In this document: positions 30,224-43,493 of the stretch, piece by piece
Position numbering within the stretch: the stretch's first letter is position 1
Layout of the letters: each line of letters starts with the position of its first letter
Origin: Escherichia phage vB_EcoS_XY2
Strand: one strand, 5' to 3'
Length of the DNA: 44,138 nt
Sequence record: MN927226.1
The notes under the pieces: generated by a model
The model's input: the letters and a program-made list of their open reading frames with translations, nothing else
The model's database searches: none
Told to the model about the DNA's origin: nothing
Program-made: the position numbers and the translations under genes

Positions 30224-30736
30224 TTAACCCCGGTACACGTTAAACGAGAATCCATTGTTAAGCCCACCACACAGTAACGGGCGTAAGGCGTCGTCAGCAG
30301 CGGTAATAGAAGTTGTAGTGCCACTGTTGCCGTTGTTGAAGTATGTTACTGTTACCGCACCCTCAACACGCTCAGTCTGCACGGAACGCCCATCTGAGTT
30401 AGCCCGAACATCAGTACCCGCCCCGTACGTGGTGGACGCGATTACCTGCGCAAGAATCACCTGTTTTGGGATGGCATTGTTCGATACAGGGAACCCATTC
30501 AACGTCACGCCAGTGCGAGGGTACGCAAGAGACTGTTCGGCGGATACACGGCGACCGCACATCTGCGGTTCTGCAAGCCCGACATAAGTAGCACCGTTGC
30601 GCAGGGCCACCTCTGCGGCGGTATCGTCTGCAGGTAGCTCCAGACCATAATTAGCCGCTAACGCGCGGGCGTCAGCCAGACTAATGTAACTGTCAGCATT
30701 AGGTACTATTGACCCATCTTCCACGATTAGCGGCAT
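30224..30736 (-). CDS. head-tail connector / head completion protein
   Basis: ORF track; GAGGAA RBS. Confidence 0.5.
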   Translation of the reverse strand: MPLIVEDGSIVPNADSYISLADARALAANYGLELPADDTAAEVALRNGATYVGLAEPQMCGRRVSAEQSLAYPRTGVTLNGFPVSNNAIPKQVILAQVIASTTYGAGTDVRANSDGRSVQTERVEGAVTVTYFNNGNSGTTTSITAADDALRPLLCGGLNNGFSFNVYRG

Positions 30737-30739
30737 AAA

Positions 30740-30919
30740 TTATTCCTCTGACTTACGGCGGCGATGCTTAGTACCACCGCCGTTGTTGTGCGCTTCTTCG
30801 TTGTCCGGTTGAGTCGCAACCAGTTCATCCGCTTCTACCACACCGCGAACAGGCATCACCTGACCGTATAAAATATCAACGTGGGTGTACTTTTCGCGGA
30901 TTACATAATTATCTGCCAT
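30740..30919 (-). CDS. small structural-module protein (59 aa)
   Basis: Hand-translated MADNYVIREKYTHVDILYGQVMPVRGVVEADELVATQPDNEEAHNNGGGTKHRRRKSEE; AAGGAAAGG RBS. Confidence 0.4.
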   Translation of the reverse strand: MADNYVIREKYTHVDILYGQVMPVRGVVEADELVATQPDNEEAHNNGGGTKHRRRKSEE

Positions 30920-33422: not shown

Positions 33423-33504
33423 AGTCAGTATGTCCCCTGGACGTTGGAATCCGGGCCACCCGGATTTACATGTCAAGAATAAATTATTCCAACATGCAAG
33501 GCAA

Positions 33505-33768
33505 CTATTCCAGAATATTCCTCACGTAATCCTGCAACATGAACACTTTCAGTCTCAGTTGCCGTACGCATTCAGCATTCTGAACGTCGACGGCCAAATC
33601 CTCATCAGCGTCGCTACTTGGCTGCGCCAGTTTGCACGGCGGCTGCATCATCGTCGTATCCGGGGATGGAATTGGCGTTGGCGACGGCGTGGGACTTGAG
33701 CTGCACGCGCTCAGGGTCAAAAGTGCACACGCTGCGACCAGGCGTTTTAATGTACTTAACGACTTCAC
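33505..33768 (-). CDS. o-spanin (Rz1-like outer-membrane lipoprotein)
   Basis: Lipobox LSAC after hydrophobic signal; Pro-rich mature region; overlaps i-spanin in another frame. Confidence 0.55.
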   Translation of the reverse strand: MKSLSTLKRLVAACALLTLSACSSSPTPSPTPIPSPDTTMMQPPCKLAQPSSDADEDLAVDVQNAECVRQLRLKVFMLQDYVRNILE

Positions 33769-34000
33769 GGGTAATCACCTCTGATTTCGTCTTGCCTTCG
33801 TTGTCAGCGGCGGCGGCCTTCGATTCATCCTGCTGCTGCCGTTGTGTTTTCTCCGCTAACTCAGCCTGTGCTTTCTGCTGTTGCTGCGAAACGAGATTAG
33901 CCCGGCCTTCGTTCCATCCGCTGCGATACTGGTAGATGCCGTGTGCGTAAACCAGGATGATGAAACATGCTCCTGCTACGACAGTTGCTTTAAGATTCAT
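33614..34000 (-). CDS. i-spanin (Rz-like)
   Basis: N-terminal TM ATVVAGACFIILVYA then Gln/Glu-rich coiled coil. Confidence 0.6.
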   Translation of the reverse strand: MNLKATVVAGACFIILVYAHGIYQYRSGWNEGRANLVSQQQQKAQAELAEKTQRQQQDESKAAAADNEGKTKSEVITREVVKYIKTPGRSVCTFDPERVQLKSHAVANANSIPGYDDDAAAVQTGAAK

Positions 34001-34011
34001 GTTTCCCCTTT

Positions 34012-34044
34012 CTCGATAAGTAAAGCCCCGCCATAAAGCGGGGC
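34012..34044 (-). terminator. hairpin GCCCCGC-N6-GCGGGGC then T-rich tract
   Basis: Read directly; 12 nt upstream of i-spanin start. Confidence 0.35.
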
Positions 34045-34251
34045 GCTAGTCCTTATCATTTAAACATAGAAACGGCGTAATCTCAGTAAACCAGTTACTT
34101 TTTACACAAGCAATAGAGTATGGCCCTTCCGAACGCGTCAGCGTAACTACACTCAGGACTTACGTCCAGCTCCGTTACCTGCCCGCGCCGCGGTCGCTTG
34201 TTCATACTTCACAAGCTCAGGTGGAGCTTAGCACATTTTTAGTGAAAAGTC

Positions 34252-34267
34252 AACTATTCGAATAGTT
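34252..34267. repeat. perfect 16-bp palindrome AACTATTCGAATAGTT
   Basis: Read directly, about 55 bp upstream of promoter 34320. Confidence 0.6.
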
Positions 34268-34319
34268 TATTCCAGAATTTACAATTGAGTGGAATAACTT
34301 GAATAAGTAAATAAATAGT

Positions 34320-34348
34320 TTGCGCACCCCAATATAATAGGGTACTAT
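34320..34348 (+). promoter_or_regulatory. early-type promoter TTGCGC-N17-TACTAT for DnaN-like gene
   Basis: ttgcgcaccccaatataatagggtactatcca; near-identical to 25334-25364. Confidence 0.55.
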
Positions 34349-34375
34349 CCAGTTAACTTAAACAGGAGATGAGAA

Positions 34376-34897
34376 ATGGTTACTACAGTAATTACTTTCC
34401 CTGCGTATGTAGGGGCGAAAATATGCAGGGCTAAAAATGATGTTCGCTACTATTTGAACGCTTTTTACATAGACCCTGAAGGATTGATAGTGTCTACGGA
34501 CGGTCATAGATTGTTCTGCGACAACGTGAAGACAAACGTCGAAACTGGAGTTCTAATAGACATCAAAGGGAGGGAGCCTTCTAAATTTAATTACGCGGAG
34601 GTAGACCACGACAACGGCAGTGTTTCTTTCTATGACGATAGTCGTGCGCTTATATGTACACTTCCGGTGTATGTTGTAGACGGAAAATTTCCTGACTGGC
34701 GACGCGTAGCGCGCATTACACCTGGTTCAGTTGATAGCATAGGGTTTACTCTGTGTTATTTGGCAGACGCGCACAAGATTTCTAAGGCATATAAAAATGA
34801 AATTGCTCGTTTCGATTTCCAGGACAAAACCAGAGGATGCAAAATATCATTTTCAAACACAGCATTTATGGTGTTAATGCCTGCGCGAGTTAAATAA
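34376..34897 (+). CDS. truncated beta sliding clamp (DnaN) homolog, domain II plus C-terminal part of domain III
   Basis: DVRYYLN, TDGHRLF, VDGKFPDWRRV, IGFTLCY and C-terminal FMVLMPARV match recalled E. coli DnaN segments; 173 aa vs 366. Confidence 0.75.
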   Translation: MVTTVITFPAYVGAKICRAKNDVRYYLNAFYIDPEGLIVSTDGHRLFCDNVKTNVETGVLIDIKGREPSKFNYAEVDHDNGSVSFYDDSRALICTLPVYVVDGKFPDWRRVARITPGSVDSIGFTLCYLADAHKISKAYKNEIARFDFQDKTRGCKISFSNTAFMVLMPARVK

Positions 34898-34901
34898 AAC
34901 T

Positions 34902-34921
34902 AAGGCCCCTTACGGGGCCTT
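34902..34921. terminator. bidirectional terminator AAGGCCCC-ttac-GGGGCCTT
   Basis: Perfect 8-bp stem right after stop of 34376..34897. Confidence 0.7.
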
Positions 34922-41953: not shown

Positions 41954-42442
41954 TCAACCTTTCACCGCGCGCCCGATAGCCTCTGCCTCCTGCCACGGTT
42001 TACCGTCGAACAGCGCCAGACGACCAGCTGTACGGCGGCGCAGGCCGAGTAATGGTTTGCCGTTCTGGTTGATGAACAACGCCAGCTTAGCCCGCAGCGT
42101 CGCAACATCACCGGAACGCAGTGCCTTACCCGTACCGGTGGCAGCGGCAATCACACCAGCACCAGCGTTATAGACCAGGTCGCACACTGCATCGAACTGT
42201 GCCTGTGTCAGGGAGTGGTGTGCCGCTGCGTCAACCGCAGCTACGGCCTTAGCCATATCACGATTCAGTAACAGGAGTCCCTGACCCTTCGTAATCTTCT
42301 GCCCTTCATACACATGAGGGCCGTAGCTTCCGTAGCCAATAGTAAGGTACTTCTCGTTCGGCGTAGCACGATACGCAGTTCCACGGAACCCCTCGAATGC
42401 AGCGGTAAAATGCAATCCATTATCTGAAATGTTTCGAGACAC
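41954..42442 (-). CDS. endolysin (T4-lysozyme-like, GH24)
   Basis: FEGFRGTAYR...YLTIGYG and TQAQFDAVCDLVYNAGAG motifs; GTG start 42442 with GGAGG RBS. Confidence 0.8.
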   Translation of the reverse strand: MSRNISDNGLHFTAAFEGFRGTAYRATPNEKYLTIGYGSYGPHVYEGQKITKGQGLLLLNRDMAKAVAAVDAAAHHSLTQAQFDAVCDLVYNAGAGVIAAATGTGKALRSGDVATLRAKLALFINQNGKPLLGLRRRTAGRLALFDGKPWQEAEAIGRAVKG

Positions 42443-42692
42443 GCTTATGTCCTCCGTATGACAGCCACGCCTGACGAATCTGGCGCAGCGCAACTAATGT
42501 GATTAATGTCTCAGGCAGCGTCGGAGACATGCTGCCCTGTAACAGGTGGATACATCCTGCGGCGCAGACAATAGCAGTCAGGATATAGAGCACCCGGCCA
42601 AATAGCCCGTCGTCAACGCTGGGATGATACACATTAAACAGCGATGTGCCTCCGATTGCCAGCATTACGGCAAACCAGAATAGCTCAGTCAT
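42420..42692 (-). CDS. two-TM holin/antiholin-like protein (90 aa)
   Basis: Two hydrophobic helices then basic C-terminus; internal ATG 42692. Confidence 0.5.
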   Translation of the reverse strand: MTELFWFAVMLAIGGTSLFNVYHPSVDDGLFGRVLYILTAIVCAAGCIHLLQGSMSPTLPETLITLVALRQIRQAWLSYGGHKRVSKHFR

Positions 42693-42993
42693 GTGGTCCT
42701 CCTGGGCGGGCAATATCGCCGCCCGATACGATACCGGACAGACGGGAATAGATAGGCATCCAGAGAATAGCGATAATGAAGCCCAGGCCTGCGATTTCAC
42801 GGTCGCCCGTGATTCCAAACCATTGAGCTGCGAGAGGTGCGCCAAATACGGCGCAAGTGAAGCCAGTTGCAATAAAGCAGAAGCCGTCGATAGGGCCGGA
42901 AATAGCGGACTTATGTTGCCTTAGTCCGATTACCCCTCCGGCTAGTGCGGCAGCGAGAAGCCACCCCGTCACAGTTTCAGTAAATTTATCCAA
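42685..42993 (-). CDS. holin (three predicted TM helices)
   Basis: Three hydrophobic segments in 102 aa upstream of endolysin; TTG start after GGAGGA. Confidence 0.6.
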   Translation of the reverse strand: MDKFTETVTGWLLAAALAGGVIGLRQHKSAISGPIDGFCFIATGFTCAVFGAPLAAQWFGITGDREIAGLGFIIAILWMPIYSRLSGIVSGGDIARPGGPHD

Positions 42994-43052: not shown

Positions 43053-43493
43053 TTATCCTAATAGTTGTTTGGTAATAATCTTGCCGCCGGTGTCAGGGTC
43101 GAACTTCGATGCAACTGCTACACCACCTTGCGCCGAATACCCACATTCCATAGCCGCTAGGGCATAAGGGGCGCCTGAACCAACGGCGGAAAAGCTGTCC
43201 GCAATCTGAATAACCAAACTAAGAGCACAATCCCAAGATTTATAGAACTCCACCCTACACAACGTTTCGATGTCTTTAACCCACACCAAGGCAGAGAAAT
43301 CAAAATCGTAGTGCTTAGGCACTAAAATACTATCGTCCTCCACTAAAAGGATACCAACCCCTGCATCGCCAGCCGCCCCAATAACAACAAATTCGTTCTC
43401 GTATATCTTTGTGTCTGTGTTGTAACTGTTACTCCCGCACACAACACGGGTATCACAGGCCATTGTCTTTCCGTCAAACGCGATAGTAGTCAT
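43053..43493 (-). CDS. HslV/proteasome-beta-like Ntn-hydrolase peptidase homolog (146 aa)
   Basis: N-terminal Met-Thr-Thr; AVGSGAPYALAA matches recalled HslV AIGSGGPYAQAA; ATGA coupling. Confidence 0.65.
   Translation of the reverse strand: MTTIAFDGKTMACDTRVVCGSNSYNTDTKIYENEFVVIGAAGDAGVGILLVEDDSILVPKHYDFDFSALVWVKDIETLCRVEFYKSWDCALSLVIQIADSFSAVGSGAPYALAAMECGYSAQGGVAVASKFDPDTGGKIITKQLLG

What the first reader, a model, noticed from the sequence alone, without database searches (positions are those of the whole stretch)
33505..34000. Overlapping spanin pair embedded in the head-gene region, 8 kb from holin and endolysin
The i-spanin-like gene (33614..34000; N-terminal TM plus coiled coil) and the o-spanin-like gene (33505..33768; lipobox LSAC, Pro-rich) overlap in different frames. 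They sit between the DnaN-like island and the scaffold/capsid genes, whereas holin, a second TM protein and endolysin form a cassette at 41954..42993 in the early leftward operon. A hairpin with T-tract (34012-34044) lies just upstream of the i-spanin start, so the spanins and downstream capsid genes may depend on read-through or processing.
Basis: partly seen in the sequence, partly recalled or inferred. Interest (0 to 1): 0.4.

Follow-up and report, generated by a model that had tools for sequence, protein, structure and literature searches.

The report
Known spanin pair in Kagunavirus head module
These two overlapping genes are the phage's spanin pair, which breaks the host outer membrane at the last step of lysis; their position among the head genes, 8 kb from holin and endolysin, is real but already published and annotated for this phage group, so the finding is ordinary.

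Summary
ORF 33614..34000(-) encodes a 128-aa protein with an N-terminal membrane helix and a helical stalk. ORF 33505..33768(-) lies in the +1 frame and overlaps it by 155 bp. It encodes an 87-aa protein with a signal peptide, the lipobox LSA|C, Ser at +2 and a Pro-rich linker. The window is a near-complete Kagunavirus genome (Guernseyvirinae), 99% identical to a deposited phage. Both genes match PHROG 'Rz-like spanin' families and are annotated as spanins in relatives. They belong to the published 'Jersey' family of overlapped two-component spanins, which has the same 155-bp overlap. The split layout is also published: holin-holin-endolysin upstream of the terminase, spanins between the head genes. 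It recurs in Jerseyvirus and Dhillonvirus. So this is already known and of low interest. Two side claims are weaker. Nothing shows the lysis cassette is 'early'. The hairpin at 34025-34044 is conserved with compensatory changes, but its U tract exists only in Kagunavirus. It is the tip of a three-helix element that includes part of the ribosome-binding site. Side observations: many records truncate the o-spanin to 47 aa, which removes the lipobox. A conserved promoter plus a roughly 200-nt structured leader with no Rfam match precedes the spanins.

The parts
33614..34000 (-). i-spanin gene (128 aa): N-terminal transmembrane helix, helical periplasmic stalk, one invariant periplasmic Cys (C92)
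   Evidence: ORF. phrog_2536 'Rz-like spanin' E 8e-56 over full length, plus three further Rz-like PHROGs. KD window 1.85 at residues 5-23. AF2 helix 3-63. pN/pS 0.31. Annotated as spanin in relatives.
33505..33768 (-). o-spanin gene (87 aa, GTG start): SPase II signal with lipobox LSA|C, Ser at +2, Pro-rich linker, conserved C-terminal domain with two Cys
   Evidence: ORF. phrog_1267 'Rz-like spanin' E 2e-21 over residues 9-86; phrog_5672 matches only residues 41-87. Lipobox Cys conserved in about 40 loci; start is GTG in 40 and ATG in 2 of 42 distinct sequences. pN/pS 0.11 in the o-only part.
33614..33768 (-). 155-bp dual-coding overlap (i-spanin C-terminus in frame 0; o-spanin signal peptide and linker in frame +1)
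   Evidence: Coordinates. Same 155-bp overlap as reported for phage Jersey (PMC6139136). In the overlap the i frame is constrained (pN/pS 0.41) and the o frame looks neutral (1.02) apart from the lipobox.
33776..33782 (-). Shine-Dalgarno AGAGGTG for the o-spanin, inside the i-spanin coding sequence, 7 nt before the GTG
   Evidence: Read from sequence. A GAGG core is kept in all variants.
34025..34044 (-). G+C-rich hairpin tip (GCCCCGC/GCGGGGC) just upstream of the i-spanin RBS. It is part of a three-helix element spanning about 34003-34073 whose basal helix pairs GUUUCU with GGAAAC next to the SD.
   Evidence: z -4.9. Compensatory changes in L014/15, L088 and Jerseyvirus. Same nested fold in both genera. 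U tract only in Kagunavirus.
34225..34253 (-). Promoter-like site: TTGACT, 17 nt, TGcTAAGCT (extended -10), 253 nt upstream of the i-spanin ATG
   Evidence: Read from sequence. Present at -241 to -254 in nearly all Kagunavirus loci even though the island upstream varies in size; the equivalent in Jerseyvirus is TAGACT..TGtTACGCT. Function not tested.
34100..34219 (-). Structured 5' domain of the leader RNA (long-range closing helix, 8-bp helix, GNRA-capped hairpin)
   Evidence: RNAalifold on 42 leaders: 30 pairs, 11 with double-sided changes. 98% of cells paired against 50% or less when partners are slid. No Rfam match. The overlapping 36-aa ORF 34095..34205 loses its ATG in L028 and Jerseyvirus.
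33448..33466 (-). Second conserved hairpin, between the o-spanin stop and the scaffold RBS/ATG (33422)
   Evidence: AATCCGG/CCGGATT in Kagunavirus against ACACCGG/CCGGTGT in Jerseyvirus, i.e. two compensatory pair changes. No U tract follows.
41954..42993 (-). The unlinked remainder of the lysis system: holin (42685..42993), second holin (42420..42692), soluble T4-lysozyme-type endolysin (41954..42439)
   Evidence: phrog_2359, phrog_2508 and PF00959. ORFs. Same gene sizes as in Bas74.

Best explanation
The two ORFs are the phage's two-component spanin. They belong to the 'Jersey' family with overlapped gene architecture.

Inferred mechanism, taken from the established lambda Rz/Rz1 model:
- The i-spanin is anchored in the inner membrane by its N-terminal helix and projects a helical stalk into the periplasm.
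- The o-spanin is exported, lipidated at Cys22, cleaved by signal peptidase II and sorted to the outer membrane, because it has Ser and not Asp at +2.
- The two bind through their C-terminal domains and form a bridge threaded through the peptidoglycan.
- The bridge stays inert until the holins trigger and the endolysin removes the wall. The complexes then collapse and fuse the inner and outer membranes.

This control acts on the proteins, after they are made, so the spanin genes only need to be expressed late. They do not need to sit beside holin and endolysin. Here they are the first genes after a conserved promoter-like site and a structured leader, directly upstream of scaffold and major capsid, with no conserved promoter in between. 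They are therefore probably co-transcribed with the head genes.

Shown here: the ORFs, the topology signals, homology, conservation and purifying selection.
Inferred: localisation, complex formation, membrane fusion and the transcription unit.
For: - ORFs and frames.
- TM helix, lipobox, Ser at +2, Pro-rich linker, conserved Cys.
- Helix 3-63 in the AF2 model.
- phrog_2536 E 8e-56 and phrog_1267 E 2e-21, both 'Rz-like spanin'.
- 255 phage records share the DNA, 178 of them over at least 80% of the 1-kb query; those listed are annotated as spanin / Rz-like spanin.
- tblastn finds the i-spanin in 660 phage records, including K1ind2 (95%) and SETP3 (62%). Both phages are listed in the Jersey overlapped family, which has a 155-bp overlap (PMC6139136).
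- Golestan paper: spanin ORF7/8, holins ORF66/67, endolysin ORF68 (PMC7203180). Jerseyvirus SeF1: Gp_009/010 spanins, Gp_063-065 holins and endolysin (PMC9409062).
- Same split layout in Dhillonvirus KarlBarth.
- pN/pS 0.11 for the o-spanin C-terminal domain.
- No other lipoprotein candidate in the window, and none next to the endolysin.
Against: - I found no functional test of any Jersey-family spanin in the papers searched.
- There is no Pfam hit above threshold: PF03245 is absent and DUF2514 reaches only E 0.0045.
- The C-terminal half of the i-spanin is not confidently modelled, so 'coiled coil' is supported only for residues up to about 63.
- LipoP and SignalP were not available; the lipobox call rests on a pattern and on conservation.
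- The transcription unit is inferred from sequence only.
Confidence: 0.93

Rival explanations
1. The pair is an envelope system unrelated to lysis, for example a Cor/Llp-like superinfection-exclusion lipoprotein with a membrane partner, placed as a moron in the head module.
For: It lies next to a variable, opposite-strand moron island whose size differs between relatives and is unlinked from holin and endolysin. No functional data were found for this family.
Against: - Homology to several independent 'Rz-like spanin' PHROG families for both proteins.
- Obligatory pairing and overlap conserved across Guernseyvirinae and Dhillonvirus.
- In Yersinia phage P400 the homologous i-spanin sits directly after the endolysin.
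- The genome would otherwise lack any spanin.
Confidence: 0.03
2. Only the 47-aa product that many records annotate (ATG at 33648, MMQPPCK...) is made. The upstream lipobox-bearing part of the +1 frame would then be a by-product of the i-spanin sequence, and there is no lipoprotein.
For: Bas74 and the Golestan RefSeq record annotate a 144-nt gene. PHROG 5672 is a 47-residue profile. The o frame shows pN/pS of about 1 within the overlap.
Against: - The +1 frame stays open from the GTG/ATG in every locus.
- The start position, an upstream GAGG Shine-Dalgarno, a basic n-region, a hydrophobic core and the lipobox Cys are all kept while the residues around them change.
- phrog_1267 aligns residues 9-86.
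- AH01, TS6 and KarlBarth encode full-length lipoproteins.
- Kongari et al. state that mis-called starts and uncalled o-spanins are common (PMC6139136).
Confidence: 0.02
3. This concerns the hairpin only. The 34025-34044 stem-loop would be an efficient intrinsic terminator ending a short transcript of about 200 nt from the 34253 promoter. Spanin, scaffold and capsid expression would then need regulated read-through (antitermination), as at lambda PR'-tR'.
For: - A promoter-like site, a leader of about 200 nt and a G+C-rich hairpin with tail TTTACTTA in Kagunavirus.
- No room for a promoter between the hairpin and the ATG.
- The arrangement is conserved.
Against: - The U tract is not conserved: UUAGCGUA in Jerseyvirus, UUAUACGC in AH01, UGUUACGA in TS6.
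- The tail is base-paired in a covarying outer helix, GAUAAG/CUUAUC against UAUACG/CGUAUA.
- A similar U-less hairpin precedes the scaffold RBS.
- No antiterminator is annotated in the close relative Bas74.
- The alternative reading, a 5'-UTR element that tunes i-spanin translation or mRNA stability, fits these facts better. Neither reading has been tested.
Confidence: 0.15

Closest known systems
'Jersey' family of overlapped two-component spanins (Kongari et al. 2018, BMC Bioinformatics 19:326; members Jersey, SETP3, SE2, K1G, K1H, K1ind1-3, HK578 and others)
   Same: - Same proteins: 95% identity to the K1ind2 i-spanin and 62% to SETP3.
- Same overlapped architecture and the same 155-bp overlap.
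- Same genomic position in the relatives examined.
   Different: Nothing of substance; this is another allele. Some relatives (L038/L079, TS6, AH01) carry the 'separated' variant with a 118-aa i-spanin and an 8-bp overlap.
Lambda Rz/Rz1 (prototype two-component spanin)
   Same: Type II inner-membrane protein with a helical periplasmic domain, plus a small Pro-rich outer-membrane lipoprotein encoded in the +1 frame. Periplasmic Cys are present in both subunits. The mechanism is presumed to be the same.
   Different: - Rz1 is fully embedded in Rz; here the o-spanin runs 109 nt past the i-spanin stop.
- No detectable sequence similarity (no PF03245 hit).
- In lambda the spanin genes follow S and R in one cassette (textbook knowledge); here they are 8 kb away.
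P2 LysB/LysC (prototype overlapped spanin)
   Same: Overlapped gene architecture (PMC6139136).
   Different: Different sequence family. In P2 the genes are part of the lysis cassette.
T4 PseT.3/PseT.2 (separated spanin)
   Same: A two-component spanin. From my own knowledge, not tested here, the T4 spanin genes are also not adjacent to holin t or endolysin e, so T4 is a precedent for unlinked spanin genes.
   Different: Non-overlapping genes, unrelated sequences, and a myovirus context.
Dhillonvirus (HK578-like) lysis layout, e.g. phage KarlBarth Bas17
   Same: Holin-holin-endolysin 1-2 kb upstream of the terminase, and i-/o-spanin in the head module after the minor capsid (Mu-F-like) gene. 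Weak i-spanin homology. HK578 is listed in the Jersey family.
   Different: The spanins directly abut the minor capsid gene. There is no decoration gene, no moron island and no promoter/leader in between, and the leader model R1 finds nothing there.

Membership tests
Two-component spanin (i-spanin/o-spanin) | i-spanin has a single N-terminal transmembrane domain, with the rest of the protein periplasmic (type II) | tested here: met
   KD 19-aa window of 1.85 at residues 5-23, Lys4 on the N side, no other hydrophobic segment. AF2 helix from residue 3.
Two-component spanin (i-spanin/o-spanin) | i-spanin periplasmic domain is predicted alpha-helical or coiled coil | tested here: inconclusive
   A continuous helix to residue 63 with pLDDT 76-93; residues 64-128 have low confidence and are mostly non-helical in a single-sequence model. 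No dedicated coiled-coil predictor was available.
Two-component spanin (i-spanin/o-spanin) | o-spanin has a signal peptidase II signal with a lipobox Cys and no inner-membrane retention signal (no Asp at +2) | tested here: met
   MKSLSTLKRLVAACALLTLSA|CSSS. The Cys is conserved under varying lipoboxes and +2 is S, N, R, Q or A in relatives. This is a pattern-based call; LipoP and SignalP were not run.
Two-component spanin (i-spanin/o-spanin) | The two genes are adjacent in embedded, overlapped or separated architecture | tested here: met
   The o-spanin starts in the +1 frame 232 nt into the i-spanin and ends 109 nt beyond it, which is the overlapped architecture.
Two-component spanin (i-spanin/o-spanin) | Required for outer-membrane disruption; complements the lambda Rz/Rz1 defect | not testable with these tools
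   Needs genetics. No published test for this family was found.
Jersey spanin family (Kongari 2018) | Sequence homology of both subunits to family members | tested here: met
   tblastn gives 95% to K1ind2, 62% to SETP3 and 64-66% to other Jerseyvirus records such as vB_SenS_SB15 and SS4. phrog_2536 and phrog_1267. o-spanin C-terminal domain nearly invariant across loci.
Jersey spanin family (Kongari 2018) | 155-bp overlap of the two genes | tested here: met
Contiguous lysis cassette (holin-endolysin-spanin) | Spanin genes adjacent to holin and endolysin | tested here: not met
   7,954 bp separate the endolysin end (41954) from the i-spanin start (34000), with terminase, portal and head genes between them. 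This is not a defining feature of spanins.
Intrinsic (Rho-independent) terminator, for the 34025-34044 hairpin | G+C-rich stem followed by a conserved U tract | tested here: inconclusive
   It meets the scan criterion in this window. However, the U tract is lost in Jerseyvirus, AH01 and TS6 while the stem is kept, and the tail pairs in a covarying outer helix.

The most novel reading that the evidence does not exclude
The most novel reading concerns the sequence in front of the spanin pair, not the pair itself. Across Kagunavirus and Jerseyvirus a promoter-like site is followed by a structured RNA domain of about 120 nt and then by a three-helix element that holds part of the i-spanin ribosome-binding site. 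Both parts carry compensatory base changes and neither matches any Rfam family. This could be an undescribed cis-regulatory leader that sets the timing, the read-through or the low translation rate of the spanins relative to the co-transcribed scaffold and capsid genes.
Probability: 0.4. Interest if true: 0.4.

Novelty: already known. Interest (0 to 1): 0.1.

Why it matters
As a spanin finding it adds nothing new. It confirms that this window carries the standard Guernseyvirinae lysis layout.

The practical value is in annotation. Many deposited records, and one PHROG family built from them, start the o-spanin 40 codons too late. That removes the signal peptide and lipobox, so automated lipoprotein or spanin checks on those entries will fail.

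The conserved promoter, structured leader and RBS-embedding stem-loop upstream of the spanins would matter more. If functional, they would show how a virulent siphovirus doses a potentially toxic membrane-fusion protein from the same transcript as its most abundant structural proteins.

Tried and rejected
- **Rfam.** The whole window at gathering thresholds and 33900-34400 at E up to 10 gave no credible family for the leader or hairpin.
- **tRNA/tmRNA scan.** Nothing found.
- **Covariance model R1 of the leader domain.** Searched against the window, Pantoea AH01, Salmonella TS6, Yersinia P400, Dhillonvirus KarlBarth and the rest of Bas74. Only the window's own copy was found, so the domain is confined to the Kagunavirus/Jerseyvirus clade.
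- **Second copy of the leader in the window, for example before the lysis cassette.** None by blastn-short.
- **The 36-aa ORF 34095..34205, annotated 'hypothetical protein' in Bas74.** Rejected as a gene because its ATG is absent in L028 and in all Jerseyvirus leaders, while the RNA pairs are kept.
- **Motif GGAATAAnnTATTC as a repeated regulator site.** Three matches against 0.21 expected. One (30733-30746) is simply an SD plus ATG. This leaves two sites, which is too few to argue from.
- **TTGACA between the o-spanin and scaffold as an internal promoter.** It has no acceptable -10 and is not conserved in Jerseyvirus (TTGTTA).
- **PDB sequence search with the i-spanin.** No meaningful hit.
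- **Pfam.** Nothing above threshold for either spanin.
- **Temporal class of the lysis cassette.** The only RNA-seq paper found does not resolve spanin or holin genes.

Full report
**What the window is.** A 1-kb query around the finding matches 255 phage records. The best is Escherichia phage vB-Eco-KMB35 at 99.0%, followed by the BASEL phages Bas70-76, VB_EcoS-Golestan, NTEC3 and others. These are Kagunavirus, subfamily Guernseyvirinae. At 44,138 bp, with terminase, portal, head, tail, replication and lysis genes all present, the window is essentially a whole genome.

**Check of the observation.**
- Both ORFs are present exactly as described.
- The i-spanin (33614..34000, minus strand, 128 aa) has an ATG preceded by AAGGGG.
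  - Its only strongly hydrophobic segment is residues 5-23 (mean Kyte-Doolittle 1.85).
  - A single-sequence AlphaFold model has one helix from residue 3 to 63 at pLDDT 76-93. The C-terminal half is poorly defined.
- The o-spanin (33505..33768, 87 aa) starts at the first possible start codon of its ORF, a GTG. The sequence AGAGGTG lies 7 nt upstream.
  - It reads MKSLSTLKRLVAACALLTLSA|CSSSPTPSPTPIPSPD..., that is a basic n-region, a hydrophobic core, the lipobox LSAC and Ser at +2.
  - The first 25 mature residues contain 8 prolines, and there are two more Cys.
- The genes overlap by 155 bp in different frames.

**Is it more than chance?**
- I extracted the same region from about 40 related loci in IMG/VR and GenBank. 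In every one the +1 frame is open from the same position. The start is GTG in 40 and ATG in 2 of 42 distinct sequences.
- Every locus encodes a signal peptide ending in a lipobox Cys, even though the residues differ (LSAC, LASC, LTSC, LSGC, LNGC, ITGC, and VGC in Pantoea phage AH01).
- Downstream of the i-spanin stop, pN/pS is 0.11 in the o frame against 1.0 and 2.6 in the other frames.
- In the i-only part the i frame has pN/pS 0.31. In the overlap the i frame is constrained (0.41) while the o frame looks neutral (1.02). This fits a signal peptide and linker that need only their general character plus the Cys.
- A whole-window scan for lipoprotein-type N-termini finds three hits:
  - this ORF;
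  - an internal start inside the second holin;
  - an ORF antisense to a gene.

  So this is the only credible candidate, and nothing spanin-like lies beside the endolysin.

**What it is.**
- The i-spanin matches phrog_2536 'Rz-like spanin' end to end (E 8e-56) and three other Rz-like PHROGs.
- The o-spanin matches phrog_1267 'Rz-like spanin' over residues 9-86 (E 2e-21).
- Pfam gives nothing above threshold, and no solved structure is related by sequence.
- tblastn finds the i-spanin in 660 phage records: Kagunavirus at 90-98%, Jerseyvirus at about 62-77%, TS6 and AH01 at about 50-56%, and a weak C-terminal match in Dhillonvirus.
- Kongari et al. 2018 already define a 'Jersey' family of overlapped two-component spanins. 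It includes Jersey, SETP3, SE2, K1G, K1H, K1ind1-3 and HK578, and the paper states that the Jersey genes overlap by 155 bp (PMC6139136).
- This window is therefore another member of that family.

**The unusual position is also on record.**
- The Golestan paper lists spanin as ORF7/8, holins as ORF66/67 and endolysin as ORF68 (PMC7203180).
- A Jerseyvirus paper lists Gp_009/010 against Gp_063-065 (PMC9409062).
- The BASEL annotations show the same layout.
- In this window the cassette is holin 42685..42993, holin 42420..42692 and a soluble PF00959 endolysin 41954..42439. It lies 7,954 bp from the i-spanin.
- Dhillonvirus KarlBarth has the same split: holin-holin-endolysin at 41.0-42.0 kb and spanins at 4.5-5.0 kb, right after the minor capsid gene.
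- In Yersinia phage P400 an endolysin and the homologous spanin sit together at this head-module site.
- The head-module position is thus old and widespread in this group of siphoviruses. P400 hints that a fuller lysis cassette once lived there, but that is an inference.

**How it most likely works.**
- By homology and topology the pair should act as lambda Rz/Rz1 does. An inner-membrane subunit and an outer-membrane lipoprotein link through their C-termini across the periplasm. The intact wall holds them in check. Once holin and endolysin have removed the wall, the complex fuses the two membranes.
- The invariant Cys92 of the i-spanin and the two conserved periplasmic Cys of the o-spanin fit the disulfide-linked dimers known for lambda. 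This step is inferred.
- Because control acts on the proteins, after they are made, the genes need only late expression. This is why a position among head genes is workable.
- None of this was tested here, and I found no functional study of this family.

**The hairpin and what lies upstream.**
- The stem-loop at 34025-34044 is real: 8 bp, 7 of them G-C, and a fold z-score of -4.9.
- It is conserved with compensatory changes:
  - C-G to U-A in L014/15;
  - G-C to A-U in L088;
  - a C-G to G-C swap in Jerseyvirus.
- Its U tract meets the terminator criterion only in Kagunavirus. Jerseyvirus has UUAGCGUA, AH01 has UUAUACGC and TS6 has UGUUACGA.
- In both genera the hairpin is the tip of three nested helices that all covary:
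  - GUUUC/GAAAC against GUAU/AUAC;
  - GAUAAG/CUUAUC against UAUACG/CGUAUA;
  - GCCCCGC/GCGGGGC against GCCCGGC/GCCGGGC.
- The 'T tract' forms one strand of the middle helix. The basal helix pairs the bases between the Shine-Dalgarno sequence and the AUG.
- A second hairpin without a U tract, again with compensatory changes, precedes the scaffold RBS (33448-33466).
- I therefore favour a 5'-UTR structural element that tunes translation or stability over a plain terminator.

**Further upstream.**
- A promoter-like site, TTGACT-17-TGcTAAGCT (34253-34225), sits at a fixed distance (-241 to -254) in nearly all Kagunavirus loci, although the island beyond it varies in size. Jerseyvirus has an equivalent site.
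- The first 120 nt or so after it fold into a domain supported by covariation:
  - 30 pairs in the whole leader, 11 with double-sided changes;
  - 98% of cells paired against 50% or less in slid controls.
- Most of these changes separate just two clades. They therefore represent few independent events, although several arose within a clade (L016, L028, L014, L088 and the Jerseyvirus variants).
- The 36-aa ORF annotated there in Bas74 is not conserved.
- There is no Rfam match and no second copy in the window or in more distant relatives.
- Upstream of this unit a bidirectional terminator (34902-34921) closes the terminase-to-decoration genes. The opposite-strand DnaN-like gene lies between that terminator and the promoter-like site.

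- 'DnaN-like island' is correct. ORF 34376..34897 matches domain II of the E. coli beta clamp (E 6e-6; phrog_947).
- 'Early leftward operon' for the lysis cassette is a positional inference. The cassette lies within a run of small unknown genes that, in Bas74, starts at the divergent region next to the replication genes. A Kagunavirus time course, however, places lysozyme, Mu-F-like and capsid genes in the same 'middle' class (PMC12645636). I cannot settle it.

**Annotation problem noticed.**
- Bas74 and RefSeq Golestan annotate the o-spanin as a 144-nt gene starting at the ATG at 33648 (MMQPPCK...). ABTNLsp11241 has a 126-nt gene with the i/o labels swapped. phrog_5672 is a 47-residue profile of this truncated form.
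- These truncated entries lack the signal peptide and lipobox. Kongari et al. warn of exactly this type of error.

**Verdict.** Novelty: already known. Interest is low (0.1). The only part that might repay follow-up is the conserved structured leader and the stem-loop that embeds the RBS in front of the spanin-scaffold-capsid genes.

Noticed in passing
window 34001-34253 (- strand): A conserved promoter-like site (TTGACT-17-TGcTAAGCT) is followed by a leader of about 200 nt. Its first 120 nt or so form a covariation-supported multi-helix domain. Its last 75 nt or so form a three-helix stem-loop that contains part of the i-spanin RBS. It is conserved in Kagunavirus and Jerseyvirus, has no Rfam match, and is absent from AH01, TS6 and Dhillonvirus.
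   Followed up: yes
window 33505-33768 (- strand); L001 10706-10849; L002 3206-3349; L042 3371-3496: The o-spanin is annotated in several GenBank/RefSeq records as a truncated 41-47-aa product that starts downstream of the lipobox. In one record the i/o labels are swapped. PHROG 5672 is built from the truncated form.
   Followed up: partly
window 34376-34897 (+ strand), flanked by the bidirectional terminator at 34902-34921: A 173-aa protein resembling domain II of the beta sliding clamp (E 6e-6 to E. coli DnaN) is encoded on the opposite strand. It sits in an island whose size and content vary between relatives (terminator at -504 to -1114 from the spanin ATG; no island in Jerseyvirus). Its best PHROG is oddly named 'RusA-like resolvase'.
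   Followed up: partly
window 33448-33466 (- strand): A second conserved hairpin lies between the o-spanin stop and the scaffold RBS. It shows two compensatory pair changes between Kagunavirus (AATCCGG/CCGGATT) and Jerseyvirus (ACACCGG/CCGGTGT), and no U tract follows it.
   Followed up: partly
window 34254-34306 (- strand): Just upstream of the -35 there is a perfect palindrome, CTATTCGAATAG, together with repeated TTATTCC / GGAATAA half-sites. These are partly conserved in Jerseyvirus and could be operator sites for a regulator of the spanin/capsid promoter and of the divergent promoter.
   Followed up: partly
L038 / L079 (IMGVR_UViG_3300045988_013393), spanin region: This is a mosaic phage. 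It has the Kagunavirus leader and i-spanin 5' half, but a TS6/AH01-type 3' half (118-aa i-spanin ending GYDHE) and a 'separated' o-spanin (MNKLFLSAVIIGITGC...). This indicates recombination inside the spanin genes.
   Followed up: partly
L043 (Yersinia phage vB_YenS_P400) 2840-4409: At the equivalent head-module site this phage carries an endolysin followed by the homologous spanin. This suggests that the site once held, or can hold, a fuller lysis cassette.
   Followed up: partly
window 43053-43493 (- strand): A 146-aa ORF immediately upstream of the holin matches a PHROG annotated as an HslV-family peptidase (E 8e-34). It has only a faint Pfam proteasome hit.
   Followed up: no
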